Source: an uncultured virus (IMG/VR IMGVR_UViG_3300032167_000064) (lineage: Duplodnaviria; Heunggongvirae; Uroviricota; Caudoviricetes). Taken from it: 62,387 nucleotides of DNA. Where the stretch lies: the IMG/VR virus record IMGVR_UViG_3300032167_000064, positions 62,001 through 124,387 of that record. The stretch is one strand, 5' to 3'. This document shows positions 518-46,827 of this stretch, one piece after another; position 1 is the stretch's first letter, and the number at the start of each line of letters is the position of its first letter. A model generated the notes under the pieces. It was not told where the DNA came from. It worked only from the letters and a program-made list of their open reading frames with translations, and ran no database searches. The translations under genes were made by a program, and so were the position numbers.

Positions 518-528
518 TAATGATTTAG
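518..528 (+). repeat. Cassette-start / putative recombination site TAATGATTTAG, copy 1
   Basis: Identical 11-mer at the start of five tail-fibre-like frames; encodes N-D-L in frame. Confidence 0.85.
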
Positions 529-1181
529 CTGGGTATGGTAATGGTAGCAAAGTAGCAGCTAAAGCTACTAGTGCTACATCAGCAGTATATTCTTCTACTA
601 CTAACTATGCTAAAGCTAGTGCTGGTGCTACTACTGCATCTAAAGCTACATCTGCTACTAGTGCTACTTATTCTAGTACTGCTAATTATGCTAAAGCTAT
701 ACCATCTACGATAACTACTAGATTAACAAATCTTGAAACGTCTTTTCAGGATGGCTGTAATACAATAATGCAGGCAGTTACAGCCAAAGGACAAACTCCT
801 GCATCAAATAGTCCTACTGATATTGCTGCTGCTATAAATGCAATTCCTAATATATCAACAATATATGGAGATATAGTTGCTGGAGTTGGTGGATATAAAT
901 CAACTAAAATAACAGCTGTCAATGCTGCTCATTTTTGTAATCAGGAATATTTATTAAATAGATCTGATGGGCAATGGGATGTATTAAAAGCTGGAACTTA
1001 TAGAGTTGCAATGTATTCACAGAATTCATATGTTTATTTTTCAGTAAATGGTACACAGACAAATTTAAAGTTTGGTCAACAATATATAGACTTTAATTTA
1101 AAGGTAGGAGATATTGTTTGTTTTTATCGAGATATATCTCAAGCAATGTATTGTTGCGGATATATTTGTTATATAGGATAA
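519..1181 (+). CDS. Tail-fibre C-terminal cassette 1 (no own start codon or RBS)
   Basis: Frame begins NDLAGYGNGSKVAAKATSATS at the repeat. Ala/Thr/Ser-rich stalk repeats, then SFQDGC..AVTAKGQTPASNSPTDIAAAI and a beta-rich tip. The ORF-track TTG start at 399 overlaps the opposite-strand gene and has no RBS. Confidence 0.75.
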   Translation, partial: NDLAGYGNGSKVAAKATSATSAVYSSTTNYAKASAGATTASKATSATSATYSSTANYAKAIPSTITTRLTNLETSFQDGCNTIMQAVTAKGQTPASNSPTDIAAAINAIPNISTIYGDIVAGVGGYKSTKITAVNAAHFCNQEYLLNRSDGQWDVLKAGTYRVAMYSQNSYVYFSVNGTQTNLKFGQQYIDFNLKVGDIVCFYRDISQAMYCCGYICYIG

Positions 1182-1217
1182 TAATATCGGTAGTCTGATA
1201 AAGACTACCGATATTAT
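1181..1217. terminator. Bidirectional hairpin terminator between convergent cassettes 1 and 2
   Basis: Perfect 16-bp stem ATAATATCGGTAGTCT / AGACTACCGATATTAT with a 5-nt loop. Confidence 0.8.
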
Positions 1218-1219
1218 AT

Positions 1220-1993
1220 TTATTTTGTTATATAAATCATTCTGAAAGTAAATTCTACATATCCGGTAAAAGTTTCATTACTACCAATTACCATATACTG
1301 GTGATTATAATAACCATCTGCAATAATATGTCTTGTTGTATCTGTTAAATTTCTAGGTCTAAGTATTAATTCGCCTCTTAAATCATAATCAGATTCTCTA
1401 TCCATTGCCCAAGGTAAACTAAATAAGGAAGTGTTTTTAGGTATATCTTGACCAGATCCATATGTTCCAGAACACATAACAACAGCAACTTTACCAAATC
1501 TTTTACAATAATTATCAGCAAGAGTTGCACTCCAAGCAGTACATTGAGACGTTTCTACAGTTATATTTGAACCTTCTGTGATACCAAGATTTAATATATC
1601 CTGTTTTGTTACAGCTGTAGCTCCTGTGATATGACCGAGAGAATTAACAGTTATATTGTATAATCCTTTATTGTAAGCATTATAACTAGGATGAGTATAA
1701 AAATTTGCATCTCCTGAATTTAATTTCTTATTCCAAGGTACAGATATAGCCCAAGATCCACCTGAATTAGTTAAAGCTGTTGTATATATAACAGATCCAT
1801 ATCCTACCCAACCTATTAAATATATAGAAGTGCTTGATGTTTTTCTTGCCAAAATATACATTGTTTCACCACTATAAATTTCAGGTAAACCAAGATTAGT
1901 ACATTTACATACATATGAACCACTATCATTAATCTGACTAATAGATGTAATAGTAGTTATAGTATTATCTTTAGGAGACAAAGCTAAATCATT
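1220..1993 (-). CDS. Tail-fibre C-terminal cassette 2 (no own start)
   Basis: Frame begins NDLALSPKDN at repeat copy 2. Contains YTHPSY...GLYNITVNSLGHITGATAVTKQDI, a motif typical of Firmicute phage fibres. Confidence 0.75.
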   Translation of the reverse strand, partial: NDLALSPKDNTITTITSISQINDSGSYVCKCTNLGLPEIYSGETMYILARKTSSTSIYLIGWVGYGSVIYTTALTNSGGSWAISVPWNKKLNSGDANFYTHPSYNAYNKGLYNITVNSLGHITGATAVTKQDILNLGITEGSNITVETSQCTAWSATLADNYCKRFGKVAVVMCSGTYGSGQDIPKNTSLFSLPWAMDRESDYDLRGELILRPRNLTDTTRHIIADGYYNHQYMVIGSNETFTGYVEFTFRMIYITK

Positions 1994-1994
1994 A
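1984..1994 (-). repeat. Cassette-start site TAATGATTTAG, copy 2
   Basis: CTAAATCATTA on the + strand; 7 nt after the stop codon of cassette 3. Confidence 0.85.
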
Positions 1995-2001
1995 ATAATA
2001 A

Positions 2002-2913
2002 TTATACTTCAATATATACATTTGTTGCAGATAACCAAGCATCCATATCACTTGGATATGTAGATCTAAAACATGAAACTGTAACTTTAAATTCTCCAGT
2101 AGATAATGAAGAAATATCATATGACAATGGTGTAGTTAATGCTTTTTCTGAACTTGATCCAGCAGTATCTTTAAATCCTATATTTCCTAATGTCATATAA
2201 GAATAACTATTATATCCAGCGACAGCAGTTTTATATTTACCATTAACAATTACAAATTTATTAAATTGAGAAATATCAATATTATTAAATGTCCAAGTTA
2301 CATTAGTATGATATCCTCCATTACCGCTATTGCTGGTACTAATAGCATAAAATTGACATATACCATTTACTTGTTTAATAGATTGATTTGCATATCCTGT
2401 TGCACCGTTTTTGGTTTTTGTAACTGTTCCAGATCCAAGTAGATCTGTATTCAATATACCATCTTTAATTAAATATATTCTTGCAGGATATTCTGCAGCT
2501 AATATATCACATATTTCATCAAATGTCATACCTTCTGTTACAAGTCCAGAATATTGCATAGCTTCATATAATTGATCAAGATCAGTTCCTTCTCCAGTAC
2601 CAGATTTAAAAGGGGTTACTGTATCAGCACCACTTGGAATATATCCCCAATTTCCTTTCGAATCTTTTCCAAAAGACAATCCGCTACAATTCTTAGCATA
2701 ATTAGCAGTACTAGAATAAGTAGCACTAGTAGCAGATGTAGCTTTAGCTCCATTCTTAGCATAATTAGCAGTAGAACTATAAGTAGCACTAGTTGCACTA
2801 GTAGCTTTAGATGCAGATCCAGCACTTGTTGCTGTTGTTGCATATCTAGCCGATGTAGCAGATGTAGCTTTAGCTGCTACCTTACTTCCACTACCATATC
2901 CAGCTAAATCATT
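2002..2913 (-). CDS. Tail-fibre C-terminal cassette 3 (no own start)
   Basis: Begins NDLAGYGSGSKVAAKATSATS. Two KATSATSATYSSTANYAKN repeats, then GLSFGKDSKGNWGYIPSGADTVTPFK fibre motif and a beta-rich tip. Confidence 0.78.
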   Translation of the reverse strand, partial: NDLAGYGSGSKVAAKATSATSARYATTATSAGSASKATSATSATYSSTANYAKNGAKATSATSATYSSTANYAKNCSGLSFGKDSKGNWGYIPSGADTVTPFKSGTGEGTDLDQLYEAMQYSGLVTEGMTFDEICDILAAEYPARIYLIKDGILNTDLLGSGTVTKTKNGATGYANQSIKQVNGICQFYAISTSNSGNGGYHTNVTWTFNNIDISQFNKFVIVNGKYKTAVAGYNSYSYMTLGNIGFKDTAGSSSEKALTTPLSYDISSLSTGEFKVTVSCFRSTYPSDMDAWLSATNVYIEV

Positions 2914-2914
2914 A
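2904..2914 (-). repeat. Cassette-start site TAATGATTTAG, copy 3
   Basis: CTAAATCATTA on the + strand; 6 nt after the stop codon of cassette 4. Confidence 0.85.
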
Positions 2915-2920
2915 TTAATA

Positions 2921-3544
2921 TTATCCAATAGCTATATATCCTACTTGTACTGTAATTTTTGTATTTTGCAAATTATGGATACATAAATTGCAATCGGTAT
3001 TATTTAAGTTTGCAATCATTGTTGTTACATAATACCAATTTCCAGATGTACTATAAACAATAGGTATTACCATAGGAGGTAAATAAGGATATGAATTTCT
3101 AAAAGTCACCTTTAAAACACTATCTCCATTTGCAAGTATATCTACTCCTCCAATAAATGAAGATTCGATTCCACAAGAAGTCCATTCATCAGGAAATTGT
3201 AAAAAATCAGATCCATAAGTTCTCTTCCATACAATATTTCCATCATTAGAAAAATATCCTTTATAAAATTTTATATTACTATTATCATTGTTTGTATAAA
3301 ACAAATCAAATGTAGAAAATTGATTAGAACCATATTGAACTTCCGTTGAGTAATTCTTAACAACTCTTACGTTGTAATACCCTGTAATATTTATAGGAAA
3401 ATCGGAAAGGGCATTCCATATAGTTATAATTCCAATAGAACCGTTTTCTAAGCTATTATAAATATCAACTAATTTTACAGAAGATGTATCCAGATTGTAC
3501 TCGTCAAAATATACAACTTTATTATCTACTTTATCTAAATCATT
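2921..3544 (-). CDS. Tail-fibre C-terminal cassette 4 (no own start)
   Basis: Manual translation extends the ORF-track frame (2921..3304) by 80 codons without a stop to repeat copy 4: NDLDKVDNKVVYFDEYNLDTSSVKLVDIYNSLENGSIG...FDLFYTNND. The C-terminus VTFRNSY..PPMVIP...VGYIAIG resembles fibre-tip beta domains. Confidence 0.75.
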   Translation of the reverse strand, partial: NDLDKVDNKVVYFDEYNLDTSSVKLVDIYNSLENGSIGIITIWNALSDFPINITGYYNVRVVKNYSTEVQYGSNQFSTFDLFYTNNDNSNIKFYKGYFSNDGNIVWKRTYGSDFLQFPDEWTSCGIESSFIGGVDILANGDSVLKVTFRNSYPYLPPMVIPIVYSTSGNWYYVTTMIANLNNTDCNLCIHNLQNTKITVQVGYIAIG

Positions 3545-3545
3545 A
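3535..3545 (-). repeat. Cassette-start site TAATGATTTAG, copy 4
   Basis: Back-to-back with copy 5, separated by 10 nt (ATATTATTAA). Confidence 0.85.
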
Positions 3546-3555
3546 ATATTATTAA

Positions 3556-3566
3556 TAATGATTTAG
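3556..3566 (+). repeat. Cassette-start site TAATGATTTAG, copy 5
   Basis: Identical 11-mer, divergent from copy 4. Confidence 0.85.
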
Positions 3567-4225
3567 CTGGTTATGGTAGTGGTACTAAAGTAGCAGCTAA
3601 AGCTACTAGTGCTACAAGTGCTAGATATAGTAGCACTTCTAACTATGCTAAAGCAATACCATCTACTGTAGCTAGTAGAATTACTACATTAGAATCATCA
3701 TTAGCTAATAAAGTAAGTATTGGAAGTCAACCAAATTTTCCTGGTGTAACTATTGGATCGTCTGATAGTATGTCATATATTTATACAGAAAATGGTGATA
3801 TTAATTTTAGATATCAACTAACCGGAAAAGAAACAAATTATATATCTATTTCTAATCTTCATGATCAATGTATCAATGGATTTAAATCATATAATACATA
3901 TTGGGGAAATGTAAATACATCTTTTACAGATGTAAATAATATTTATATAAATGGTATAGGTAATACTGTTGGAGGACAATATACAAATTTACCTTTAGAT
4001 ACAGATGGTTGGGGTACATTAATTAATTTTGTATGTGATGTTACTATAATTCAATATTATTTTGGATGGAATTCTGGACATTTATGGTATAGAATGCATT
4101 ATAATAATTATGCATGGGTAGATTGGTGTGATATAACAAGTATTTCAAATAGACTTGATAATCTTGAAAATAAGTTTAATAATTTATTTTCACAGAGTGG
4201 TACCACTCTTAATATTACCTATTAA
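3557..4225 (+). CDS. Tail-fibre C-terminal cassette 5 (no own start), knob-like domain
   Basis: Manual translation NDLAGYGSGTKVAAKATSATSARYSSTSNYAKAIPSTVASRITTLE... is in frame (71 codons upstream) with the ORF-track 3770..4225. NLP..GWGTL..F...QYYF.....LWYR...W..W resembles pyocin-knob-type fibre domains; ends FSQSGTTLNITY. Confidence 0.75.
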   Translation, partial: NDLAGYGSGTKVAAKATSATSARYSSTSNYAKAIPSTVASRITTLESSLANKVSIGSQPNFPGVTIGSSDSMSYIYTENGDINFRYQLTGKETNYISISNLHDQCINGFKSYNTYWGNVNTSFTDVNNIYINGIGNTVGGQYTNLPLDTDGWGTLINFVCDVTIIQYYFGWNSGHLWYRMHYNNYAWVDWCDITSISNRLDNLENKFNNLFSQSGTTLNITY

Positions 4226-4245
4226 ATAAGGAGGTATTTATTATT

Positions 4246-4761
4246 ATGAGTATTAAATTTAATAATACAGAAATACCTTCTACTGGTGTTATAAGATTTA
4301 ATGGAACTAAACTTGACACAGTTATATCTAATAATGTTACTGTATGGGGAGGCAGTACTCCATATACTATTACAGATTTTACAAAATATGATTGGCGTTA
4401 TTCTTATCAAGATGGTAGTGTTAATGAGTATAAAATATCACAAAATCTACTTAAGGTACAAGCAAAGAAAGATCCAAATAGTGGAGCTTTTGGTCAAACT
4501 AAATTAACTGCAACTTTACCAACAGGTGGATGTAATAAGATGAAAGTTGAATACTATGCATATGATGGATTTTCATCTTTTCAAGCAGTAACTGCATCTT
4601 TTGGTATATATAATACAGACTCTATATATCAAGCTGAAAGAAGAACTATCGTTTTTGATATATCTGGAGATACTATAAATTTTCAAATGTATGCTACAGA
4701 TGCAACAGAATATTTTACAGCAGTTCTTGAAATATATTCTATAGAATTTTATAATGAATAG
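4246..4761 (+). CDS. Probable fibre-tip-associated protein (adhesin-like partner of cassette 5)
   Basis: Own RBS AAGGAGGT; beta-rich 171 aa with N-terminal IKFNNTEI...IRFNGTKLDTVISNNVTVW; directly follows cassette 5. Confidence 0.5.
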   Translation: MSIKFNNTEIPSTGVIRFNGTKLDTVISNNVTVWGGSTPYTITDFTKYDWRYSYQDGSVNEYKISQNLLKVQAKKDPNSGAFGQTKLTATLPTGGCNKMKVEYYAYDGFSSFQAVTASFGIYNTDSIYQAERRTIVFDISGDTINFQMYATDATEYFTAVLEIYSIEFYNE

Positions 4762-4813
4762 ATAATAAATAGTATATTATACCAAAATTTATTGCTGATT
4801 ATATCAAATAAAT

Positions 4814-4844
4814 ATCCCAGTAGACTATAATAGTCTACTGGGAT
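4814..4844. terminator. Bidirectional hairpin terminator
   Basis: 14-bp stem ATCCCAGTAGACTA / TAGTCTACTGGGAT between convergent genes. Confidence 0.75.
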
Positions 4845-5077
4845 TTATTATCACTAATTAACCAAAATAGTATAGATCCTATTACAATAGATATAAATCC
4901 AGATCGATATAACCAATTATTAGCAAGCATATCTATTAAAAATAGTAATGAAAAAGTGTCTTTCTTAAAATCTACAATATTAAGATATAATGTATATCCA
5001 ATACATATTGTAAATCCAAGCAAAACTAATATTATGCTAATTTTCATTATTGTTTCTTGTAACTTATTTTTCTTCAT
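4835..5077 (-). CDS. Small membrane protein (2 predicted TM segments)
   Basis: ATG at 5077 with RBS GGAGGT; two hydrophobic stretches. Confidence 0.6.
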   Translation of the reverse strand: MKKNKLQETIMKISIILVLLGFTICIGYTLYLNIVDFKKDTFSLLFLIDMLANNWLYRSGFISIVIGSILFWLISDNKSQ

Positions 5078-5126
5078 AATTGCCACCTCCGATTTATATA
5101 ATTGTATTATATATCATACTGAACAA

Positions 5127-5157
5127 ATCCTCTAGGGTTTTATTAACCCTAGAGGAT
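5127..5157 (-). terminator. Hairpin terminator downstream of the tRNA pair
   Basis: 13-bp stem ATCCTCTAGGGTT / AACCCTAGAGGAT. Confidence 0.7.
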
Positions 5158-5206
5158 CGTTCAAATATATTTGAGTTCTTATGGAATTCCAAAGTATCAT
5201 CTTTGC

Positions 5207-5283
5207 TAACGATGACGGGATTTGAACCCGTGACCACCGGATGTGCACTTTCCGGTTGCTCTACCGAACTAAGCTACATCAAA
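5207..5283 (-). ncRNA. Atypical tRNA-like RNA / pseudo-tRNA (undetermined anticodon)
   Basis: Canonical D arm (GCTT-AGTTCGGTA-GAGC) and T arm (ACGGG-TTCAAAT-CCCGT), but a 6-bp anticodon stem with a 9-nt loop AAGTGCACA and an acceptor stem with mismatches. Confidence 0.65.
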
Positions 5284-5289
5284 AGCAAA

Positions 5290-5362
5290 CTCCCCGAGTA
5301 GGACTCGAACCTACGACACCCTGATTAACAGTCAGATGCTCTACCGACTGAGCTATCGAGGA
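5290..5362 (-). tRNA. tRNA-Asn(GTT), CCA not encoded
   Basis: TCCTCGATAGCTCAGTCGGTAGAGCATCTGACTGTTAATCAGGGTGTCGTAGGTTCGAGTCCTACTCGGGGAG folds as a canonical cloverleaf with anticodon GTT. Confidence 0.93.
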
Positions 5363-5413
5363 ATAATCTATACTCTTATGTTGGTTATGAATTGTAAAAA
5401 TGTTGATTTTCAA

Positions 5414-9441: not shown

Positions 9442-10788
9442 ATGCCCAGAGAGATTATGTCTGCTCAGGATATAGAGCGTAATATTACTTTACCAGAAGA
9501 TAGATATGGTTTTGAAAAAATAAAAAATCTTCACGCTAGTTTAGCATTACCATCTTATGTACATGGTTATTCGTTAGCTATTCAGTATATGTATAATTGG
9601 TTTAAAGCTAAGTTTCCAAATGAATTCTTCAGAGGAGGAATTTATATAGATGGAAAGAATGTTTTGGACGATTATAAGAGACTTAATGACTATGCTATGA
9701 AGAATATTGTAAAAGGACAGAATCCTAGAGCAAGAATTGCTCCTGTTGTACAATACGATTATGATAGAGAAGGTCTCGATGTATATTTAGGTTCTCCTCA
9801 TGTGTATCTGAGAAGATCAAAATTTCAAGATAGTTTCTTCAAAGATCCTGAAAGAGATTTATTTTTAGGATTTGTTCCTAGAGGATTAAGAATGGACTTT
9901 GGATTTAAGGTTCGTTTAAATTCTCGCTCTGAACAGCTTGATACTTATAATATGATGGAATTATATTTCAGAAATGGATCTACACAGTCTGAATATATCA
10001 GTGTAGATTTCCATGTTCCAAAGCATATTGTTCATCATATTGCAGAGAAAGCTGGATTTGAAATCGTAAATGATCAGGTAGTTGATGTAATCGATTTTAT
10101 CAATTACCTTAATCGTCATTCTAGTTTACCTTTCTTATTTAAGATGCGTTCTATTAATCAGCAACCTGAATATTTTATCAGGGTAAATAATGTATATACA
10201 CGTATTGCTGTAAGAGATAAATTACAACTTGATGATGGTGAAAGAGATGGCAAGCTTGATTTTAATTTCCATATAGAAATGGCTGCTACTTTAGATATTC
10301 CTATTCCTCATTATTATGCTTTTTATTCAGCAGAAGAAATGAAGTCTGAGTTGGTTGTAAAAGAAACTACAGATTGTGTTGCTGTTTATAGTATCAATAT
10401 CTTTGATATTCCTGAAGAAGATGAACATGGATGGCAGAATATATCTGAAACTTCTTATCAAGCTGATAAAGGTGAAACAGAAATCGATATGAGTTCCATA
10501 TTCTCTGGTGATAATTTGTTAACTAGAGCTATAGATCACGAATTAACAAATTTTGTTTCTCCATATAAATTCTGCAATATCAAGATATTCAGGCAAAATG
10601 ATGTAGCAAGAGTAGTTGATTTTGACTTTGATTGGAATACTAAGATTGCCAAACTTCATGTTCCTGAAGATGAAGGTGTATTGGATTTAGTTATATATTG
10701 TGATATGGAATATGTAAATAGTCTTAACATTGAACTTGGTAATTATAATAAAACTCGTTTATCAAAAGATAATAGAATAGACGGATAA
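9442..10788 (+). CDS. Probable virion structural protein
   Basis: 448-aa ORF, RBS AAGGAGGT, late-type promoter; function not recognised. Confidence 0.5.
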   Translation: MPREIMSAQDIERNITLPEDRYGFEKIKNLHASLALPSYVHGYSLAIQYMYNWFKAKFPNEFFRGGIYIDGKNVLDDYKRLNDYAMKNIVKGQNPRARIAPVVQYDYDREGLDVYLGSPHVYLRRSKFQDSFFKDPERDLFLGFVPRGLRMDFGFKVRLNSRSEQLDTYNMMELYFRNGSTQSEYISVDFHVPKHIVHHIAEKAGFEIVNDQVVDVIDFINYLNRHSSLPFLFKMRSINQQPEYFIRVNNVYTRIAVRDKLQLDDGERDGKLDFNFHIEMAATLDIPIPHYYAFYSAEEMKSELVVKETTDCVAVYSINIFDIPEEDEHGWQNISETSYQADKGETEIDMSSIFSGDNLLTRAIDHELTNFVSPYKFCNIKIFRQNDVARVVDFDFDWNTKIAKLHVPEDEGVLDLVIYCDMEYVNSLNIELGNYNKTRLSKDNRIDG

Positions 10789-10792
10789 AAAG

Positions 10793-10821
10793 ACCCTAGG
10801 AGTTTTATCAACTCCTAGGGT
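10793..10821. terminator. Bidirectional hairpin terminator
   Basis: ACCCTAGGAGTT / AACTCCTAGGGT. Confidence 0.75.
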
Positions 10822-35496: not shown

Positions 35497-37854
35497 ATGG
35501 CTGTATTATCAAAAGAACAAATAGCATCAATTGATAATTATAGTAACGAAATTAAGACATTAAAAGATTTCGTTAGTGCTGTTAGAAAAAGACCTGGTAT
35601 GTATCTTGGTCCAATCAGTAACAAAGGTCTCTTAAATATGATGAGAGAAATTTTTCAGAACTGTATTGACCAGATTTTAGATCCTACCAGTCCAGCAAAT
35701 TGGTTTTCGTTCTTCTACGATGAAAGAACACTTGAGATTATTGTTGAAGATAATGGTAAGGGATTTCCTTTCAATGATATTGTAAGAATACTTACATCTC
35801 AGCACACTTCAAAGAACTTTGAAAAGAAACTTGGAGATTATTCTTCTGGTATGAATGGTGTAGGTTCTAAGATTGTAAATGCATTATCTGAAAGATTTAC
35901 AGCAGAATCTTTTAGATATGATGGTACTGCTGTAAAGGTTGATTTTGTTAAAGGATATCCGAAGACAAATGAACCTGTTAAAATTTCTAATAAAGAAAAC
36001 AAACAAGGTTCAAGAATTACATTTGTTCCTGATACTGAAATTCTTGGAGAAATGAATCTTGAATGGAAGGTTGTATATAATCTGATTAAGAATATTATGT
36101 CACTTACTCCTATTGGATCAGTATGTGACTTTGCTGCTATAGATATCAATGGTAAACAGTTTACCGAGCATATTGTAAACAAAGATGGTATTATTACAAA
36201 CTTGATTATGAATGTGAAGACTCCTATGGTTAAACCTATTGTATTATCTATGGATGACGGTGTTCATAAATTAGAAGCAGCTTTCTGTTATGATACCGGT
36301 GGAGAAGACGGTCCTGATGATTTGTCAGTTACATCTTTTTGTAACTTCTGTCCATCATATGGTACACATGTTGATGGTACTGTTGACGGTATTTGTAGAT
36401 GGTTTTCTATGTATATGAATAATATTTATCTGGCTAATCAGAAATCAAAAGATAAAACAAAGGTATTACCTATTGATATTAAGTCAGGTTTGAATATATT
36501 TATCTCTGCAGCTCATTTAGAACCCGTGTTTACAGGTCAGGCAAAAGAAATCCTATCTAATGAAGATATGATTGGATTTTGTAAAGAAGTAGCAATGAAA
36601 GGTCTTGATGAGTGGAGCAAAGCCAATCCTCAGGATTTAGCAAAACTTGCAAAATTCTTTAAAGAAATTGCAGATCTTCGTATGAAGCAGGAAGCTGGCA
36701 AGGCTAAAATTGCTACAAAGTATGCAAAGAATCCGGTTACAAATTTACCTCGTAAATATATTAGACCTCTTACTAATAAAGATAATGAACTTATAATAGT
36801 TGAAGGAGATTCTGCTCTTGGAAAAGCTGAAGAAGATAGGGATCCTAATACTCAAGGTCTGTTTCCAATAAGAGGTAAAATTATTAATGCTTTTAAGGCA
36901 AGTAGACAAGCTTTCTTCAGCAATGAAGAAGTTCAGGGTATTACTCGTATCACTTTTGGACAAGATTATCGTAAAGGTCTTACTATAGAAGATGCTAAAG
37001 TGAAAAAAATCATATTTATGACCGATGGTGATATTGATGGTGCTCATATAGCAGCACTTTTGCTTCGAATGTTCGTTATGTATTATCCGTTTTTAATAGA
37101 AGCTGGTATGGTATATAAGGCTATTCCTCCTTTATACAGTATCAAAGACGGAAAGAAAACAAGATACTTTACAGATAATCTTGATATGATTAGATATATT
37201 CAGAAATTCTTCTTATCATCGAATGAATTTAAGTCTATAGATAATAAAGATCTTAGCTCAAAAGAGATTACTAGTTTCTTCTTAAAAAATGCTGATTATA
37301 TTTATTATATCACAAGAACCGCTAGTACTTATGCTGTAGATCCTTATTTGCTCGAAATGGTATTAATACATTATCTCTTAAATAAGAAAACTATCAAGTT
37401 TGAGAAACTTCAAAAAGAAGTAAAATCTGTATACAGATTTATGGATGTATATAAAGAACACGGAACTATCGTTGTTAGAGGTTCTATTGACAAATCAAAC
37501 TTGATTATTATCAGTGATAAATTCTTAAGAGATTGTGCTGATATTCTTCGTATAATGGAATCAAATGATAGCCTTTATTATATGCTCAATAAACAGAAAA
37601 GTTCACTGCTTACTGTAATGAAAGTATATGAATCTAATACGCCTAAAGATATTCAGCGATACAAGGGTCTTGGTGAAATGGGAGATGGTCAGCTTGGAGA
37701 ATCTACTCTTAGACCTGATTCTGATAGAATGCTTATCAGATATACTATGGATAGTGCTAAAGAAGCTATTAACTTCATTAGAGAATATGAATCTGATACA
37801 AAGAAGATTCTATCTGAAGTTGGTGTTGTTACTAGGGATGATCTGTTAGACTAG
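35497..37854 (+). CDS. gyrB: Type IIA topoisomerase subunit B (GyrB/ParE-like)
   Basis: VRKRPGMYLG, EDNGKG, GMNGVG, VEGDSA, PIRGK, TDGDIDG and RYKGLGEM motifs. Confidence 0.9.
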   Translation: MAVLSKEQIASIDNYSNEIKTLKDFVSAVRKRPGMYLGPISNKGLLNMMREIFQNCIDQILDPTSPANWFSFFYDERTLEIIVEDNGKGFPFNDIVRILTSQHTSKNFEKKLGDYSSGMNGVGSKIVNALSERFTAESFRYDGTAVKVDFVKGYPKTNEPVKISNKENKQGSRITFVPDTEILGEMNLEWKVVYNLIKNIMSLTPIGSVCDFAAIDINGKQFTEHIVNKDGIITNLIMNVKTPMVKPIVLSMDDGVHKLEAAFCYDTGGEDGPDDLSVTSFCNFCPSYGTHVDGTVDGICRWFSMYMNNIYLANQKSKDKTKVLPIDIKSGLNIFISAAHLEPVFTGQAKEILSNEDMIGFCKEVAMKGLDEWSKANPQDLAKLAKFFKEIADLRMKQEAGKAKIATKYAKNPVTNLPRKYIRPLTNKDNELIIVEGDSALGKAEEDRDPNTQGLFPIRGKIINAFKASRQAFFSNEEVQGITRITFGQDYRKGLTIEDAKVKKIIFMTDGDIDGAHIAALLLRMFVMYYPFLIEAGMVYKAIPPLYSIKDGKKTRYFTDNLDMIRYIQKFFLSSNEFKSIDNKDLSSKEITSFFLKNADYIYYITRTASTYAVDPYLLEMVLIHYLLNKKTIKFEKLQKEVKSVYRFMDVYKEHGTIVVRGSIDKSNLIIISDKFLRDCADILRIMESNDSLYYMLNKQKSSLLTVMKVYESNTPKDIQRYKGLGEMGDGQLGESTLRPDSDRMLIRYTMDSAKEAINFIREYESDTKKILSEVGVVTRDDLLD

Positions 37855-37895
37855 TTCATCCCTAGTCTTTATTTTCTATTAGAAAGGAAAAAGTT

Positions 37896-38519
37896 ATGAA
37901 ACATAGAAGACGATACACTTCAGTAGAAAGTGTTTTAGATATTTATGATCATAATAGATGCTGGTACTATATTCCTGGCTTTAATGGATATGAAGTATCT
38001 AACGATGGTTATATTCGTTCTATGAAACATTACTTAAGATATCCTTATGGAATTCTCATTAGTCCAGTTACAAGAGAACCTTATGGATCTAGTTGTGATC
38101 CATTATTTGAAATCTCTGATGATAATAATGTAAGAAGAAGAATTAGATTGTCTCAATTAATTCATCTTGCTCATACAAGTAATTATCATGCAGCTGGATA
38201 TCCTAGAGCTACTATTATTACAGATAATACCTCTAGAAATAAATATGTAAAAAATCAAAATGGAGCATATGTGAAGGTTTATAATGGTAATAAACCAGGT
38301 GGAGGTAGAAAATCATTTACTATACCACCTATGGATAATTCTGTACACTATGCAAAATTTACTATCATACAAGAAGGGAACGAATTACCAAGAATGACTT
38401 ATTGTCAACCTGAAGTACAAGTTCCAATAGAATCAATCAAAGGAGACGAATATTATGGCAGAAAAGATTGTAGAGCGATCAGCCACCTCAATGTATGTGG
38501 AAGATCAGGCGAAGTATAG
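37896..38519 (+). CDS. NUMOD4-domain protein (homing-endonuclease-derived, no recognisable HNH)
   Basis: WYYIPGFNGYEVSNDGYIRS is a NUMOD4-like motif; overlaps the start of the A-subunit gene by 65 nt. Confidence 0.6.
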   Translation: MKHRRRYTSVESVLDIYDHNRCWYYIPGFNGYEVSNDGYIRSMKHYLRYPYGILISPVTREPYGSSCDPLFEISDDNNVRRRIRLSQLIHLAHTSNYHAAGYPRATIITDNTSRNKYVKNQNGAYVKVYNGNKPGGGRKSFTIPPMDNSVHYAKFTIIQEGNELPRMTYCQPEVQVPIESIKGDEYYGRKDCRAISHLNVCGRSGEV

Positions 38520-40821
38520 TATCGTTGCCAATAGACGTAGAGCAATTCCTGCAGTACAAGATGGATTAAAACCTGTTCAAAGAAGATCTTTATATGGAGC
38601 ATTTAAGAAAGGTTTTAGAAAACCTAGTCAACATGGCAAATCAGCTCAGCTTACTGGTCTGGTTATGGGCGATTATCATCCACATGGAGATAGTTCAATT
38701 TATGATGCTTTTGTTACTATGGCTGCTTGGTATAAAATTAAATATCCATTAATGTATGGATATGGTAACTGGGGTAATGTTTCTGGAGCTGGAGCAGCAG
38801 CTCAACGATATACTGAAGTTGCACTTAGTGATTTCGGCTATGATGTTATGATTGACGAATTAGCACAATCAACAAATATTGTAGACTGGATTGATACTTA
38901 TACAAGAAAAGATAAGGAACCTGAATATCTTCCAGCTAAATTACCTAATCTTTTAATTAATGGAGCATTTGGTATCGGTGTTGGTATGAGTATTAATGTA
39001 CCGTCTCATAATGTAGGAGAAGTTATTGATGTTATTATCAATCTTATCAAAAATCCGAATGCTAAAGCTGTATTAATTCCCGATCTTATTCAGGAATGTG
39101 ATATTGTAAATACAGATTGGGAGGAAATTTCTAATACTGGTAGAGGTTCTTTTAAAGTGAGAGGTAGAATTATTACCGAACAGGACAAGAACGGTAATTA
39201 TACTTTAAGAATTGTATCATTACCTGATCAGGTTACTACTACATCAGTATATGAAAAAATCCTTGATATGATTGCTGACAAACAGCTCCCTATGGTTAAG
39301 GATGTATTCAACTCCTTACAGAATAAGAAGCCAAATATTATTATTAATTTATCTAAAGGAGCTGATCCTGGATATGTAAAGCAGGCTATTTATGCTAAAA
39401 CTAAAGTTCAGGATTCAATCAATGTAAACTTTGAAGCAGTATCTATGAATGGTATTGACTTGGAGAGATTCTCATATAAGAAATATCTTATGGATTTTAT
39501 CGATCAGAGAATGTCTATTAAATTTAGACTGTATTGTAATCTACTTCAGCAGGTTATGACAAAACATCTTCAGATCGATGCATTAGTTAAAGTTGTTGGT
39601 TCCAAAGAATTTGACAAACTTATGAATATGATTCGTAAGTATAATGGAACAGATGCTGAGCCTATTGTTGAGTTTATGATCAAGAATTGTGGAGTAAGTG
39701 ATATTCAGGCTAAATATATTTTAGCAAGAACTCTTCCTCAGCTTTCCAAAGGTCATCTTGCCGCATATATCAAAGAAAGAGATGAATTGCAGAAGAAAAT
39801 TGATATTTACATGCAATATGTAACCGACGATGGAACTCTTATTAAGAATGAGATTATCGAAGAGCTTCAGGAATTAAAGAAGAAATATAATACTCCTAGA
39901 CTCTGTACTATTGTTGATGCAAAAGAAAATGCTGATATCCCTAAAGGTATCTTTAAGGTTATTATTACAGAAAGAAACTATATTAGAAAGATTCCTGATG
40001 TAGATAAGATTGCTGTAATTAAGAAAGATAATCCTAAATTTATTCTTCGAGTTGACAATGCAGAGAATCTGCTTATCTTTGACAATAAAGGTAAAGTATT
40101 TAGTCTTCCGGTTCATAAGATTCCTATTACAGATAGAAGTGGTATTGGTACAGATGTAAGAATTCTTATCAAGAACTTGACATCTAATATTGCTTCTGTT
40201 TATTATGAACCTATCTTTGATAAGATTAGCAAAGGAACAAATAAGCACTATCTTACAGTATTAACTAAGTCTAATACTATTAAGAAACTTGATATTGAAG
40301 ATTTCTTAAATGTATCACCATCTGGTCTTATGTATTCTAAGATTAGACCTGAAGATGAAGTTGTTGGAGTATCTTTGGTACCTCACAATCTTGACATTGC
40401 TATTTGTAGTGGAAAGAAAGTTTTGAGATGTAAACTTAAAGATGTACCTTTGTATAAGAGAAATGCTGCTGGTTCTAGAGCTATGTCTAGTAATGAAGAT
40501 ATGACTGGATTATCAGTATTATATCCTGATAGTACAGATATTGTTGTAGTTACAAAGAATGGTAAGTTTAACAGATTCAATATTGCTATGCTTACTTGTA
40601 GTGCAAGAGGTAGAAGTGGTAATAAAGTAATTAAGCTGGATAATAATGATGATATTCTGAATGTATTTGCTGTAAATGAAACTGATAAAATCAGATTACT
40701 TACAACAGATGGAGTTGAAGAGATTAATGTATCAGATATCAAAGTTAAATCCAGTATTGCTGCTGGTACTAAAATGGTACAAAGTAAAGGTGTTATTGTA
40801 AAAGCTGATGTTATAAGATAA
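38455..40821 (+). CDS. gyrA: Type IIA topoisomerase subunit A (GyrA/ParC-like)
   Basis: RAIP..DGLKPVQRR, YHPHGDSS, catalytic AAQRYTE, PNLLING and PSHN motifs; C-terminal beta-pinwheel repeats. Confidence 0.9.
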   Translation: MAEKIVERSATSMYVEDQAKYSIVANRRRAIPAVQDGLKPVQRRSLYGAFKKGFRKPSQHGKSAQLTGLVMGDYHPHGDSSIYDAFVTMAAWYKIKYPLMYGYGNWGNVSGAGAAAQRYTEVALSDFGYDVMIDELAQSTNIVDWIDTYTRKDKEPEYLPAKLPNLLINGAFGIGVGMSINVPSHNVGEVIDVIINLIKNPNAKAVLIPDLIQECDIVNTDWEEISNTGRGSFKVRGRIITEQDKNGNYTLRIVSLPDQVTTTSVYEKILDMIADKQLPMVKDVFNSLQNKKPNIIINLSKGADPGYVKQAIYAKTKVQDSINVNFEAVSMNGIDLERFSYKKYLMDFIDQRMSIKFRLYCNLLQQVMTKHLQIDALVKVVGSKEFDKLMNMIRKYNGTDAEPIVEFMIKNCGVSDIQAKYILARTLPQLSKGHLAAYIKERDELQKKIDIYMQYVTDDGTLIKNEIIEELQELKKKYNTPRLCTIVDAKENADIPKGIFKVIITERNYIRKIPDVDKIAVIKKDNPKFILRVDNAENLLIFDNKGKVFSLPVHKIPITDRSGIGTDVRILIKNLTSNIASVYYEPIFDKISKGTNKHYLTVLTKSNTIKKLDIEDFLNVSPSGLMYSKIRPEDEVVGVSLVPHNLDIAICSGKKVLRCKLKDVPLYKRNAAGSRAMSSNEDMTGLSVLYPDSTDIVVVTKNGKFNRFNIAMLTCSARGRSGNKVIKLDNNDDILNVFAVNETDKIRLLTTDGVEEINVSDIKVKSSIAAGTKMVQSKGVIVKADVIR

Positions 40822-46215: not shown

Positions 46216-46827
46216 ATGAGAGTTATGATTAACTTTTCAATTTTAACTCTTGGTACAGATGGTAATAGAATTAATAATATAATAAATACAAATTCTCAAC
46301 TCCTACAATTTCAAAAGACTATTGTTGACTATAATGATCAATATGCTTTGTCTACATATGACAAAAATACTATATTTGAAATTGCCAAGGATGTTGGGGA
46401 TTTGGCAAATATATCGATGCAATCCGTAAAGCTTAAAGATTTTACTTTTTTCTACGAAGATTCGATTTGTTTTAAAGTTCAGGGTAGCAATATATACCAG
46501 CTGAATAATTTATCTGCTAATATTAACAAAGAAACTATTATAAGAGGATTCAATATATCATTTCAGGAATATTTGGAGAGACAGATTATTACTGTAGAAG
46601 ATTTTCGAAATGGTAATCTGACTGAAGATTTTATTATATTGAATTTGTATGTTCTTGAAAAAGGAAAACCTTGTGCTGTAATAGAACCAGGTGAATTAAA
46701 AAGTAAATCTCCTCATCCTTGTTGGAATTTTGTTGCAAAATTAAGACGAAATGATTGCAGAAGATCTTTAAATGAAGAAGAATATACTGATGAAGATGAT
46801 GAGAATTATAATGATGGCTGGATATAA
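46216..46827 (+). CDS. Hypothetical protein
   Basis: 203-aa ORF. Confidence 0.6.
   Translation: MRVMINFSILTLGTDGNRINNIINTNSQLLQFQKTIVDYNDQYALSTYDKNTIFEIAKDVGDLANISMQSVKLKDFTFFYEDSICFKVQGSNIYQLNNLSANINKETIIRGFNISFQEYLERQIITVEDFRNGNLTEDFIILNLYVLEKGKPCAVIEPGELKSKSPHPCWNFVAKLRRNDCRRSLNEEEYTDEDDENYNDGWI

What the first reader, a model, noticed from the sequence alone, without database searches (positions are those of the whole stretch)
518..4761. Shufflon-like array of five start-less tail-fibre tip cassettes in a jumbo phage, each beginning at an identical 11-bp site
Seen in sequence: TAATGATTTAG occurs at 518-528(+), 1984-1994(-), 2904-2914(-), 3535-3545(-) and 3556-3566(+), extending to TAATGATTTAGCT in four of five. 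In every case it encodes N-D-L in the frame of a 208-304 codon open frame lacking its own ATG and RBS. The ORF track hides this: cassettes 4 and 5 extend 80 and 71 codons upstream exactly to the site. Packing is tight: 6-7 nt between a stop codon and the next site, and 10 nt between the back-to-back sites 4 and 5. Cassettes 1 and 2 converge on a bidirectional terminator between inverted sites. The five tips are unrelated to one another. Established knowledge: this is the layout of multiple-inversion systems (R64 shufflon/Rci, p15B Min, Mu Gin, P1 Cin) that fuse alternative C-termini onto a constant N-terminus. Inference: a site-specific receptor-binding-protein switch giving at least five host ranges; I know of no such system described for phiKZ/AR9-like jumbo phages.
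Basis: partly seen in the sequence, partly recalled or inferred. Interest (0 to 1): 0.88.

Follow-up and report, generated by a model that had tools for sequence, protein, structure and literature searches.

The report
Genome-dispersed tail-fibre tip cassette switch
A roughly 278-kb gut jumbo phage stores about eighteen spare, start-less tail-fibre tips, five of them in this window. Each begins at the same 10-11-base site that also sits inside the one complete fibre gene, so the phage can probably swap its host-recognition tip by DNA recombination.

Summary
TAATGATTTAG occurs 5 times in the window, against 0.30 in shuffles. It occurs 16 times in the 124-kb record, always reading N-D-L at the head of a long frame with no start codon or ribosome-binding site.

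Four further contigs of the same phage give a circular map of about 278 kb with 20 sites. One site lies in frame inside a 305-aa fibre gene with a ribosome-binding site and ATG: 125 constant residues, then N-D-L, then a cassette.

Contigs identical at every aligned base differ only at the sites. One difference fits a 23-kb inversion. In another, one cassette is joined to two different upstream flanks.

A Xer-like tyrosine recombinase lies about 5 kb past the window end; no serine recombinase was found. In public data, 120 proteins with this constant part carry 80 groups of tips.

No rearrangement of the window's own five cassettes was seen.

Verdict: a real tail-fibre shufflon, nearest to the Rin type, but dispersed over about 98 kb of a jumbo phage. 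The scan noted a similar library on other DNA (e1-5707927).

The parts
518..528 (+). Site 1 (TAATGATTTAG), heading cassette 1
   Evidence: Exact match. Reads N-D-L. Preceded by 55 nt of intergenic DNA next to a divergent gene start at 463.
519..1181 (+). Cassette 1: 220 codons plus stop, no start codon. Shaft repeats followed by a unique tip.
   Evidence: The N-terminal 63-127 residues resemble other cassettes. No Pfam or PHROG hit.
1181..1217 (.). Hairpin between the converging cassettes 1 and 2; terminator-like on the + strand
   Evidence: 16-pair stem, listed on the + strand only.
1220..1994 (-). Cassette 2 (257 codons plus stop) with its site at 1984-1994
   Evidence: No similarity to the other 19 cassettes. 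The only database relatives are its own truncated ORF and one protein at 60% identity. The protein atlas gives only weak leads to phage fibre or knob clusters, scoring 0.81-0.89.
2002..2914 (-). Cassette 3 (303 codons plus stop) with its site at 2904-2914. Its stop lies 7 nt before site 2.
2921..3545 (-). Cassette 4 (207 codons plus stop) with its site at 3535-3545. Its stop lies 6 nt before site 3.
   Evidence: No similarity to the other cassettes.
3546..3555 (.). 10-nt spacer between the back-to-back sites 4 and 5, too short for a promoter or ribosome-binding site
   Evidence: The same back-to-back layout with a 10-nt spacer recurs at G000:46152/46173 and 56619/56640.
3556..4225 (+). Site 5 and cassette 5 (222 codons plus stop), ending ...SGTTLNITY
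4246..4761 (+). Partner gene (171 aa, own SD and ATG, begins MSIKFNNTEIP...). It would travel with cassette 5 as a two-gene unit.
   Evidence: One search shows AAGGAGG upstream of the ATG. All five cassettes ending SGT(T/V)L(T/N)IT(F/Y) are followed by a paralogue of this gene, with a conserved first 35 residues and a variable remainder. That it binds the cassette end is inferred.
4814..4844 (.). Bidirectional terminator-like hairpin closing the cluster
   Evidence: 14-pair stem found on both strands.

Best explanation
What it is. The five frames are silent, interchangeable 3' ends (tips) of one tail-fibre gene of a roughly 278-kb jumbo phage.

The expressed gene. It lies outside the window, in the tail-fibre module, and supplies the promoter, ribosome-binding site, ATG and 125 constant N-terminal residues ending ...QLTTLN-N-D-L.

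The switch. A site-specific recombinase cuts and rejoins DNA inside the 10-bp core TAATGATTTA. That core is found at this junction and at the head of every cassette: 20 sites in all, comprising 18 silent tips, 1 expressed tip and 1 empty slot.
- Exchange between the expression site and a silent site in inverted orientation flips the DNA between them and puts a new tip in frame, as in a shufflon.
- Exchange between sites in the same orientation would excise or delete DNA, or trade arms between replicating genome copies, which is closer to integron logic.

The enzyme. The most likely enzyme is the phage's own Xer-like tyrosine recombinase.

Two-gene units. Cassettes ending SGTTLTIT(F/Y) carry along a separately translated partner protein.

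Shown: the sites, the start-less frames, the in-frame expression locus, junctions that differ exactly at the site between otherwise identical contigs, and the presence of the recombinase.

Inferred: that the recombinase is the catalyst, that switching happens during infection, and that the tips change host range.
For: 1. Site statistics and frames. There are 5 exact 11-mers in the window against 0.30 expected, and 16 in the record against 0+1 for the reversed control. All 16 are in the N-D-L frame with 79-382 open codons downstream (33 at the contig end). The frame is closed 3-7 codons upstream in 13 of 16.

2. The constraint is on DNA, not on the peptide. All 16 sites use AATGATTTA. The 14 N-D-L tripeptides elsewhere in ORFs use 9 codon combinations, and only 3 of 14 are AATGATTTA.

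3. No independent translation signals. 2 of 16 sites have an SD-like 4-mer upstream, against 119 of 124 other ORFs. Three divergent pairs are separated by only 10 nt.

4. Expression locus. A 305-aa ORF has AAAGGAGG 8 nt before its ATG and the site in frame after codon 125. The same locus is present in a second record, G004. It sits beside collagen-like tail-fibre genes (PHROG tail fibre, 2e-44) and an Mtd_N-domain gene. Its N-terminus matches that neighbour at 7e-14.

5. Exchanges at the site.
- G000 and G002 are 100% identical from G000:92 on, over 46,669 bp. They diverge exactly at the site: G000 has cassette X, G002 has an empty slot.
- Cassette X is fused to the constant part in G003 and G004.
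- G003 equals G002 over 21,488 bp (100%). At the same site it then runs into the reverse complement of the flank of the site 23 kb away (100% over 123 nt), which is the junction expected of a 23,084-bp inversion.

6. Recombinase. A 359-aa protein scores PF00589 at 1e-35 and matches the XerA/integron-integrase-type model at 223 bits against a cut-off of 220. It has 1795 homologues at E<=1e-40. Three of the longest-contig lengths listed for them (103589, 250055 and 289635) are also listed for hits to the constant part.

7. Family-wide junction. 234 proteins match the constant part at E<=0.001, of which 120 were listed. 69 of the 120 show ...NNDL. Their variable parts fall into 80 clusters, 66 of them singletons. 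P0008 has a 100% identical constant part but a tip 61.5% identical, over its full length, to a cassette that is silent here. Some relatives' tips carry H_lectin, Peptidase_S74 or Gp10_C domains.

8. Other metagenome contigs. The same 10-mer sits at the junction and at downstream start-less frames in L164 and L173. The pairs L172/L173 and L174/L175 share a constant part but differ after the site.
Against: - No rearranged form of the window's five cassettes was seen. G000 and G001 have the same order. Logan contigs of 4 runs bridge site 2 (3 runs) and the site 4/5 pair (1 run) in the reference order, and no strand-changing joint was listed. These are low-depth contigs (depth about 5-10), which drop rare variants.
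- No database protein fuses the constant part to cassette 2; only 2 hits were found.
- The two variant junctions sit 91 and 113 nt from contig ends. Their reciprocal junctions were not found: scans for them returned only G002.
- Both expression loci seen for this phage carry the same cassette X.
- The recombinase lies 63 kb from the nearest site. It is of a generic Xer type that could serve another purpose, and it scores only 34 bits on the tyrosine-invertase model against a cut-off of 222.
- Eleven sites share the orientation of the expression site. Unrestricted recombination between them would delete essential genes. The G000 junction is the one that such a 29-kb deletion would give.
Confidence: 0.78

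Rival explanations
1. The sites are evolutionary joints, not a running switch. On this reading the short conserved sequence is a hot spot where related phages occasionally trade fibre modules, by rare illegitimate or recombinase-mediated events. The start-less frames are stored or decaying leftovers that are not swapped within a phage population.
For: The cassette order is identical in G000 and G001 and in the Logan contigs that bridge sites. Both expression loci seen carry cassette X. No reciprocal junctions were found. The family carries 80 tip clusters, which shows exchange over evolutionary time.
Against: All 18 silent frames are intact over 79-382 codons, and each keeps the exact 11-mer. 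Three different junction states occur among contigs with zero substitutions over 21-78 kb, so the exchanges are much faster than point mutation. A conserved recombinase accompanies the family.
Confidence: 0.13
2. Each cassette is an independent gene translated from an unconventional start, for example ATT or ATA codons or a phage-specific leaderless signal within ATATTAATAATGATTTAG.
For: ATT codons lie 1-3 codons upstream of N-D-L at 4 of the 5 window sites. In L173, TTG lies 3 codons upstream of two cassettes. The AT-rich conserved flank could in principle be a promoter of the phage's own RNA polymerase.
Against: There is no shared start codon across the 16 sites, and some have none. 2 of 16 sites have an SD-like motif, against 119 of 124 other genes. 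Back-to-back pairs leave only 10 nt for two promoters and two ribosome-binding sites. The ATG inside the site opens a 2-codon frame. The same site is read through in frame in a normal gene. This idea does not explain why junctions differ exactly at the site.
Confidence: 0.04
3. The parts are joined at RNA or ribosome level (trans-splicing, RNA ligation or ribosome hopping onto cassette transcripts) without any DNA rearrangement.
For: The cassettes are dispersed and lie on both strands, which an RNA-level process would tolerate. A HAD domain of RNA-repair proteins is encoded near the clusters.
Against: DNA contigs themselves carry the alternative junctions. No intron-like element was looked for or seen. 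No precedent is known to me in phages (recalled).
Confidence: 0.02

Closest known systems
Rin shufflon of Bifidobacterium breve/longum prophages (Mavrich et al. 2018, PMC6109161; passages read)
   Same: Both have a constant N-terminal receptor-binding-protein segment and several start-less variable C-terminal segments, each preceded by a short asymmetric repeat. The repeat is 11 bp there and a 10-bp core plus G here. Both have a XerD-like tyrosine recombinase with core-binding and catalytic domains. In both, inversions are inferred from comparing genomes.
   Different: Rin is one compact locus with the recombinase gene at its edge, in temperate siphophage prophages of about 40 kb class. Here there are 20 sites in 7 clusters spread over about 98 kb of a roughly 278-kb phiKZ/AR9-like jumbo phage, interleaved with replication, nucleotide-metabolism and structural genes. 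The recombinase is 63 kb from the nearest site. The site sequence is different. Some cassettes bring a second gene with them.
Min (p15B), Gin (Mu), Cin (P1) and Pin (e14) tail-fibre inversion systems
   Same: Alternative fibre C-termini are fused to a constant N-terminus by DNA inversion. Two-gene cassettes (Mu Sv-U) parallel the cassette-plus-partner units here.
   Different: Those systems use serine invertases, and none was found here. From recall, they use about 26-bp dyad-symmetric sites and an enhancer. They form a single local segment, of up to 6 sites in Min, and occur in temperate phages or plasmids.
R64/IncI shufflon (Rci tyrosine recombinase, pilV)
   Same: Both are multi-site systems with asymmetric sites and a tyrosine recombinase, in which alternative C-termini are placed on a constant N-terminus.
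   Different: The target there is a conjugative pilus adhesin. There are 7 sites in one 2-kb locus beside rci, and the system makes inversions only (recalled). Here the sites are dispersed, and tandem same-orientation cassettes exist in relatives.
Integrons
   Same: Both hold promoter-less cassettes stored in arrays and expressed only at one entry site. The recombinase's best NCBIfam model is named 'tyrosine recombinase/integron integrase'. Relatives have tandem, same-orientation cassettes behind the expressed gene.
   Different: The integron-integrase models score far below their cut-offs (77 bits against 265, and 43 against 435). No attC-type hairpin sites were looked for or seen. Here cassettes are protein segments fused in frame, not whole genes.
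Silent-cassette antigenic variation (Neisseria pilE/pilS, Borrelia vlsE)
   Same: Both have many start-less silent copies, partly dispersed, that feed one expression locus.
   Different: Those systems work by homologous gene conversion over long shared sequence (recalled). Here there are reciprocal exchanges at a 10-bp site, with no homology on either side.

Membership tests
Rin-type (tyrosine-recombinase) tail-fibre shufflon | A constant N-terminal fibre/RBP segment with its own start, ending at the crossover site | tested here: met
   L146 1137-2054(-): SD and ATG, then 125 codons, then the site in frame. The same locus is in G004.
Rin-type (tyrosine-recombinase) tail-fibre shufflon | Several start-less variable C-terminal segments, each headed by the same short asymmetric repeat | tested here: met
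   18 silent cassettes plus one empty slot, all with TAATGATTTA. 5 of them are in the window.
Rin-type (tyrosine-recombinase) tail-fibre shufflon | A Xer-like tyrosine recombinase encoded in the element | tested here: met
   G001:82418-83497, PF00589 at 1e-35 with SAM-like N-terminal domains, and the XerA-type model at 223 bits against a cut-off of 220.
Rin-type (tyrosine-recombinase) tail-fibre shufflon | Recombinase gene flanking a single compact cassette locus | tested here: not met
   The recombinase is about 63 kb from the nearest site. The sites form 7 clusters over about 98 kb.
Rin-type (tyrosine-recombinase) tail-fibre shufflon | Inverted arrangements between otherwise identical genomes, breaking at the repeat | tested here: met
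   G003 against G002 shows one junction of a 23,084-bp inversion, with 100% identity on both sides. The reciprocal junction was not recovered.
Rin-type (tyrosine-recombinase) tail-fibre shufflon | The recombinase catalyses the exchange | not testable with these tools
   Needs an inversion assay.
Serine-invertase fibre switches (Gin/Cin/Min/Pin) | A serine recombinase (Resolvase, PF00239) | tested here: not met
   0 of 3 records (G000, G001, G002) have a match at E<=1, while the control rang in 13 of 14 genomes. The additional 9 kb of G003 was not searched with the model. Its listed ORFs are the fibre genes, a 365-aa ORF and a 121-aa ORF; no family search was run on the last two.
Serine-invertase fibre switches (Gin/Cin/Min/Pin) | A dyad-symmetric crossover site of about 26 bp (recalled) | tested here: not met
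   Conservation covers about 16 bp, (TAA)TAATGATTTAG(CT), and is asymmetric.
Integron | An IntI-type integrase | tested here: not met
   TIGR02249 scores 77 bits against a cut-off of 265, and NF011946 scores 43 against 435.
Integron | attC hairpin recombination sites bounding each cassette | not tested
   No fold search of cassette ends was made. The shared site lies at the 5' end of cassettes and inside coding sequence.
phiKZ/AR9-like jumbo phage (the host genome of the system) | Genome over 200 kb with a divergent PolB, tubulin and multisubunit RNAP pieces | tested here: met
   The union map is about 278 kb. It carries PF20286, Tubulin, Rpb2_6 and divDNAB.

The most novel reading that the evidence does not exclude
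A virulent-type jumbo phage runs a genome-scale recombination system. One Xer-like enzyme acts on 20 ten-base sites scattered over a third of the chromosome. It flips blocks of tens of kilobases that contain essential genes, and also excises or re-inserts cassettes, so that it combines features of a shufflon and an integron. Each burst would then contain virions with any of about 18 different fibre tips, or none. The same site would serve as a common currency through which a whole family of rumen and gut phages trades tips (at least 80 tip groups).
Probability: 0.4. Interest if true: 0.88.

Novelty: new variant of a known kind. Interest (0 to 1): 0.74.

Why it matters
Tail-fibre switches are known from temperate phages as small local devices offering two to a handful of tips. 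Here the same logic appears in a roughly 278-kb phiKZ/AR9-like phage with about 18 spare tips spread through the genome.

Switching would therefore re-arrange large parts of the chromosome. That bears on how jumbo phages keep broad host ranges, and on why their metagenomic assemblies break or look 'complete' when they are not. It also bears on how receptor-binding modules move between phages.

[quoted passage not shown] No paper in the held library contains both 'shufflon' and 'jumbo'.

The short, defined site and its recombinase would also make a compact tool for swapping fibre tips.

Tried and rejected
- Near-match constant gene. G002:16973(-) has TAATGATTAAG ending a 575-aa ORF '...INND*' and looked like the constant gene. 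It is a tail sheath (phrog_19666) followed by a normal SD and ATG, so the match is chance.
- Frameshift or TAG recoding from the ATG inside the site. The frames do not fit, and the other frame closes after about 50 codons (read by eye).
- 16-mer scan of viral contigs.
- Metagenome scan for the constant-part junction: 0 matches.
- Scans for reciprocal junctions: only G002 was returned.
- Sequencing runs. 24 runs were found, all held as contigs and from animal faeces or bovine gut. Laying 4 of them on 18 kb gave only 'skip' joints with short sides, probably cross-mapping between paralogous cassettes. No strand-changing joint was listed, and depth was 5-10. This does not show absence.
- Complex prediction of the cassette 5 end with the partner protein: no verdict (score 0.09).
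- Genome-collection scan for a complete relative. It found only a homologue of a tip domain in an Anaerovibrio lipolyticus genome.
- PDB sequence search with the constant part: nothing meaningful (E = 0.087).
- Pfam and PHROGs on the cassettes and partner genes: no hits, apart from phrog_4302 (unknown function) on two cassettes outside the window.
- Earlier-findings look-ups by place and by sequence: nothing returned.
- G005 is an unrelated phage with the motif inside a normal 113-aa protein.

Full report
OBSERVATION

TAATGATTTAG occurs exactly at window 518(+), 1984(-), 2904(-), 3535(-) and 3556(+). 100 dinucleotide-preserving shuffles gave a mean of 0.30 and at most 2. With one mismatch allowed, the seven extra matches are what chance gives (12 found, 7.2 expected).

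From each site the frame reading N-D-L is open for 220, 257, 303, 207 and 222 codons. It closes 5-6 codons upstream at sites 2-5. At site 1 it is open 46 codons upstream, but without an ATG and running into a divergent gene start.

There are 7 and 6 nt between a stop and the next site, 10 nt between the back-to-back sites 4 and 5, and a 16-pair hairpin between the converging cassettes 1 and 2.

One statement needs correcting. Cassettes 1, 3 and 5 share their first 50-75 residues (AGYGSGxKVAAKATSATSA... repeats). Only cassettes 2 and 4 are unrelated to everything else, and the C-terminal ends all differ.

THE WINDOW IS ONE CLUSTER OF A MUCH LARGER SYSTEM

The window is bases 62001-124387 of a 124,387-bp viral record, G000. 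That record holds 16 exact copies of the 11-mer, against 0 and 1 for the reversed control.

All 16 copies read N-D-L at the head of an open frame. The frames run 79-382 codons, except one cut to 33 codons by the contig end. None has a long in-frame ORF running into it.

Two results show the conservation is in the DNA and not in the peptide.
- All 16 sites use AATGATTTA. The 14 N-D-L tripeptides elsewhere in ORFs use nine codon combinations, and only 3 are AATGATTTA.
- Only 2 of the 16 sites have any Shine-Dalgarno-like 4-mer within 25 nt upstream. By contrast 119 of 124 other ORFs have one, and 120 of 124 start with ATG.

The back-to-back layout with a 10-nt spacer occurs three times. That leaves no room for two promoters and two ribosome-binding sites.

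THE WHOLE GENOME

A scan for the back-to-back pattern found two more records of the same phage.
- G001 is 200,990 bp and equals G000 from base 46634 on, 100.000% over 77,754 bp.
- G002 is 68,144 bp and equals G000:92-46760, 100.000% over 46,669 bp.

G003 (30,734 bp) extends G002 to the left, and G004 (64,927 bp) bridges the right end of G001 to the left end of G003. The site spacings in G004 (1484, 1083 and 1239) fit a 43-nt overlap of G001 and G003.

Together the records give a circular map of about 278.1 kb. The 127-bp 'inverted terminal repeat' that made G001 look complete is a repeat shared by two paralogous cassette/partner-gene junctions.

The map carries 20 sites in 7 clusters within an arc of about 98 kb. 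Between the clusters lie PhoH, a prohead protease, a divergent PolB, tubulin, ThyX, FolD, glycosyltransferases and endolysins. The window beyond the cluster adds a divergent DnaB, gyrase A and B, an RNA-polymerase beta-like subunit and an NAD ligase.

THE EXPRESSION LOCUS

In G003, and again in G004, a 305-aa ORF starts with AAAGGAGG-N8-ATG. It reads MASYLRPRRGKK...NYNSQLTTLN, then N-D-L through the site in frame, then a 180-codon cassette, here called X.

Several things place it in the tail-fibre module. It sits next to collagen-like tail-fibre genes of 475 and 1310 aa (PHROG tail fibre, 2e-44 for the second). Beside it is a 141-aa gene with the Mtd_N domain. Its own N-terminus matches that neighbour at 7e-14.

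A near-match that first looked like a constant gene, an ORF ending ...INND*, turned out to be the tail sheath and was dropped.

EXCHANGES EXACTLY AT THE SITE

In what follows, U is the flank upstream of a site and D is the cassette side.

G000 and G002 are identical from G000:92 rightwards and unrelated leftwards. The break falls inside the site. G000 has U(spacer)+X, whose first 33 codons are identical to cassette X at the expression locus. G002 has U(spacer) plus an 'empty slot' (TAATGATTTA-A, reading NDLTFLRFSK*).

G003 is identical to G002 for 21,488 bp up to that empty slot. It then continues, with 100% identity over 123 nt, as the reverse complement of the flank upstream of the site 23 kb further on (G000:23186). 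This is the junction expected if the 23,084 bp between a (-) and a (+) site were inverted.

The five junction types seen are therefore:
- U(spacer)+X
- U(spacer)+null
- U(23186)+Q
- U(23186)+null
- U(const)+X

The eleventh base travels with the cassette side, so the crossover lies within TAATGATTTA.

The flanks share no more than about 13 nt. That is too little for an assembler to have built chimeras, and too little for homologous recombination.

Because the backbones have no substitutions at all, these events are fast relative to point mutation.

The G000 junction is the one expected from recombination between two sites in the same orientation, 29 kb apart. It could arise by deletion or excision, or by two successive inversions that move the block.

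Both variant junctions lie close to contig ends (91 and 113 nt from them). That fits assembly graphs branching there because the population is mixed. It also means each junction is seen only once, and the reciprocal junctions were not found.

THE ENZYME

No serine recombinase was found in G000, G001 or G002. One tyrosine recombinase is encoded at G001:82418-83497, about 5 kb beyond the window's end. Its features are:
- 359 aa, PF00589 at 1e-35, with SAM-like N-terminal domains
- best NCBIfam model XerA / 'integron integrase' type, at 223 bits against a cut-off of 220
- XerC, XerD and integron-integrase models below their cut-offs
- tyrosine-invertase model at 34 bits

The gene is 63 kb from the nearest site. 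It has 1795 homologues at E<=1e-40. Three of the longest-contig lengths listed for them (103,589, 250,055 and 289,635 bp) are also listed for homologues of the constant fibre part. This suggests, but does not prove, that the two genes travel together in this phage family. That this enzyme acts on the sites is inference.

THE FAMILY

A search with residues 1-128 of the fibre gene found 234 proteins of 167-534 aa at E<=0.001, and 120 of them were listed.
- 69 of the 120 show ...NNDL at the junction.
- Beyond the junction they are unrelated: 80 clusters, 66 of them singletons.
- P0008 has a 100% identical constant part. Its tip is a full-length homologue (61.5% identity) of the cassette that is silent at G001:200295.
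- Some relatives' tips carry H-type lectin, Peptidase_S74 (endosialidase chaperone), Gp10_C or DUF6273 domains, which fits receptor-binding fibre ends.

In metagenome contigs the same 10-mer marks the junction of other constant parts (...ITQLN|NDL). The pairs L172/L173 and L174/L175 share a constant part and differ from the site on. L164 and L173 have two further start-less cassettes directly behind the expressed gene, in the same orientation.

Same-orientation arrays cannot be used by inversion alone. They point to excision and insertion, or to exchange between genome copies.

PARTNER GENES

All five cassettes that end SGT(T/V)L(T/N)IT(F/Y) are followed by a gene with its own ribosome-binding site that begins M(S/A)IK(V/F)N(G/N)TEIP. 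This includes window cassette 5 and its partner at 4246-4761. The first 35 residues of these partners are conserved and the rest varies.

I read these as two-gene units, like Sv-U of phage Mu, with the partner as the distal piece. That reading is inference.

WHAT DID NOT SUPPORT THE READING

- The order of the window's five cassettes is the same in G000 and G001.
- Logan contigs from four animal-gut runs bridge site 2 (three runs) and the site 4/5 pair (one run) in the reference order, and no strand-changing joint was listed. Their depth is only 5-10, and contigs drop rare variants.
- A database search with cassette 2 found only its own truncated ORF and one relative at 60% identity, with no fusion to the constant part.
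- Both expression loci seen for this phage carry cassette X.

COMPARISON WITH KNOWN SYSTEMS

The nearest described system is the Rin shufflon of Bifidobacterium prophages. It has a constant Rc segment and variable Rv segments, each behind an 11-bp asymmetric repeat. Its recombinase is an arm-less XerD-like tyrosine recombinase, and the whole is a compact locus with the recombinase at its edge (PMC6109161, passages read).

The present system meets the first three features and fails the last.

It differs from Gin, Cin, Min and Pin in enzyme class and in site type. It differs from the R64 shufflon in its target and its layout. It differs from integrons in its integrase type and in fusing protein segments rather than whole genes.

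On novelty in print:
- 12 papers hold 'shufflon', 'tail fiber' and 'phage'; I saw the listing and read passages of two.
- No paper holds both 'shufflon' and 'jumbo'.
- Two further searches gave nothing relevant. Supplements were not consulted.

Earlier notes of this scan, which are unchecked AI notes, describe a similar dispersed start-less tip library keyed to a different short word in another 250-kb gut jumbo phage (e1-5707927). So the kind has been seen by the scan before on other DNA.

VERDICT

This is a new variant of a known kind: a Rin-like tyrosine-recombinase fibre switch. It is unusual in four ways:
- its scale, with 20 sites and about 18 spare tips
- its dispersal across a third of a jumbo-phage genome
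- the unlinked position of its recombinase
- signs of both inversion-type and excision-type products

Active switching, the identity of the enzyme and any effect on host range remain to be shown.

Noticed in passing
window 5205-5280 (-), next to tRNA-Asn at 5289-5363 (-): ARAGORN reports only tRNA-Asn. By eye, the stretch just before it also looks tRNA-like. Public contigs pile up to a depth of about 2,500 over window 4801-5400 (L012 16801-17400), presumably through cross-mapping of cellular tRNAs.
   Followed up: no
G001 (L131/L132) ends; G000:46566-46760: The 127-bp 'inverted terminal repeat' that makes G001 count as 100% complete is an assembly break inside an inverted repeat of at least 195 bp. 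That repeat is shared by two cassette-end/partner-gene junctions. The real map is about 278 kb and closes through G004.
   Followed up: yes
G002:21475-21485 (L134), also G003:30612: This is an 'empty slot': the site with A instead of G at base 11, followed by only 10 codons (NDLTFLRFSK*) and a terminator hairpin. If joined to the constant part it would give a truncated, tip-less fibre, a possible off state.
   Followed up: partly
L146 4427-5854(-) and 5941-9873(-): Two collagen-like (G-X-Y repeat) tail-fibre genes of 475 and 1310 aa lie beside the expression locus. G002 breaks inside the longer one.
   Followed up: no
L185 (Anaerovibrio lipolyticus genome contig), 10001-10810: A tip domain common among relatives of this fibre (P0072 type...GVRPLIxIG) has a homologue at 45% identity over 268 residues in an Anaerovibrio lipolyticus genome. 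It is probably in a prophage and is a weak clue to the host range of the family.
   Followed up: no
L173 1128 and 1488; L164 4785 and 5123: In relatives the spare cassettes stand in tandem, in the same orientation as the expressed gene. In L173 each has ATTG..CAT directly before TAATGATTTA. This is a different left flank from the ATATTAA seen in this phage.
   Followed up: partly
L152 178-519(-) (G005): An unrelated phage encodes a normal 113-aa protein with ...KPFNDLAGYGN... in its middle, encoded by the same DNA words. This shows that NDLAGYG is an internal fibre motif and not an N-terminus.
   Followed up: no
window 43941-46166 (+) and 35497-40821 (+): An RNA-polymerase beta-like subunit (Rpb2_6) and full gyrase B and A genes lie in the window, typical of phages with their own transcription and topology machinery.
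   Followed up: no
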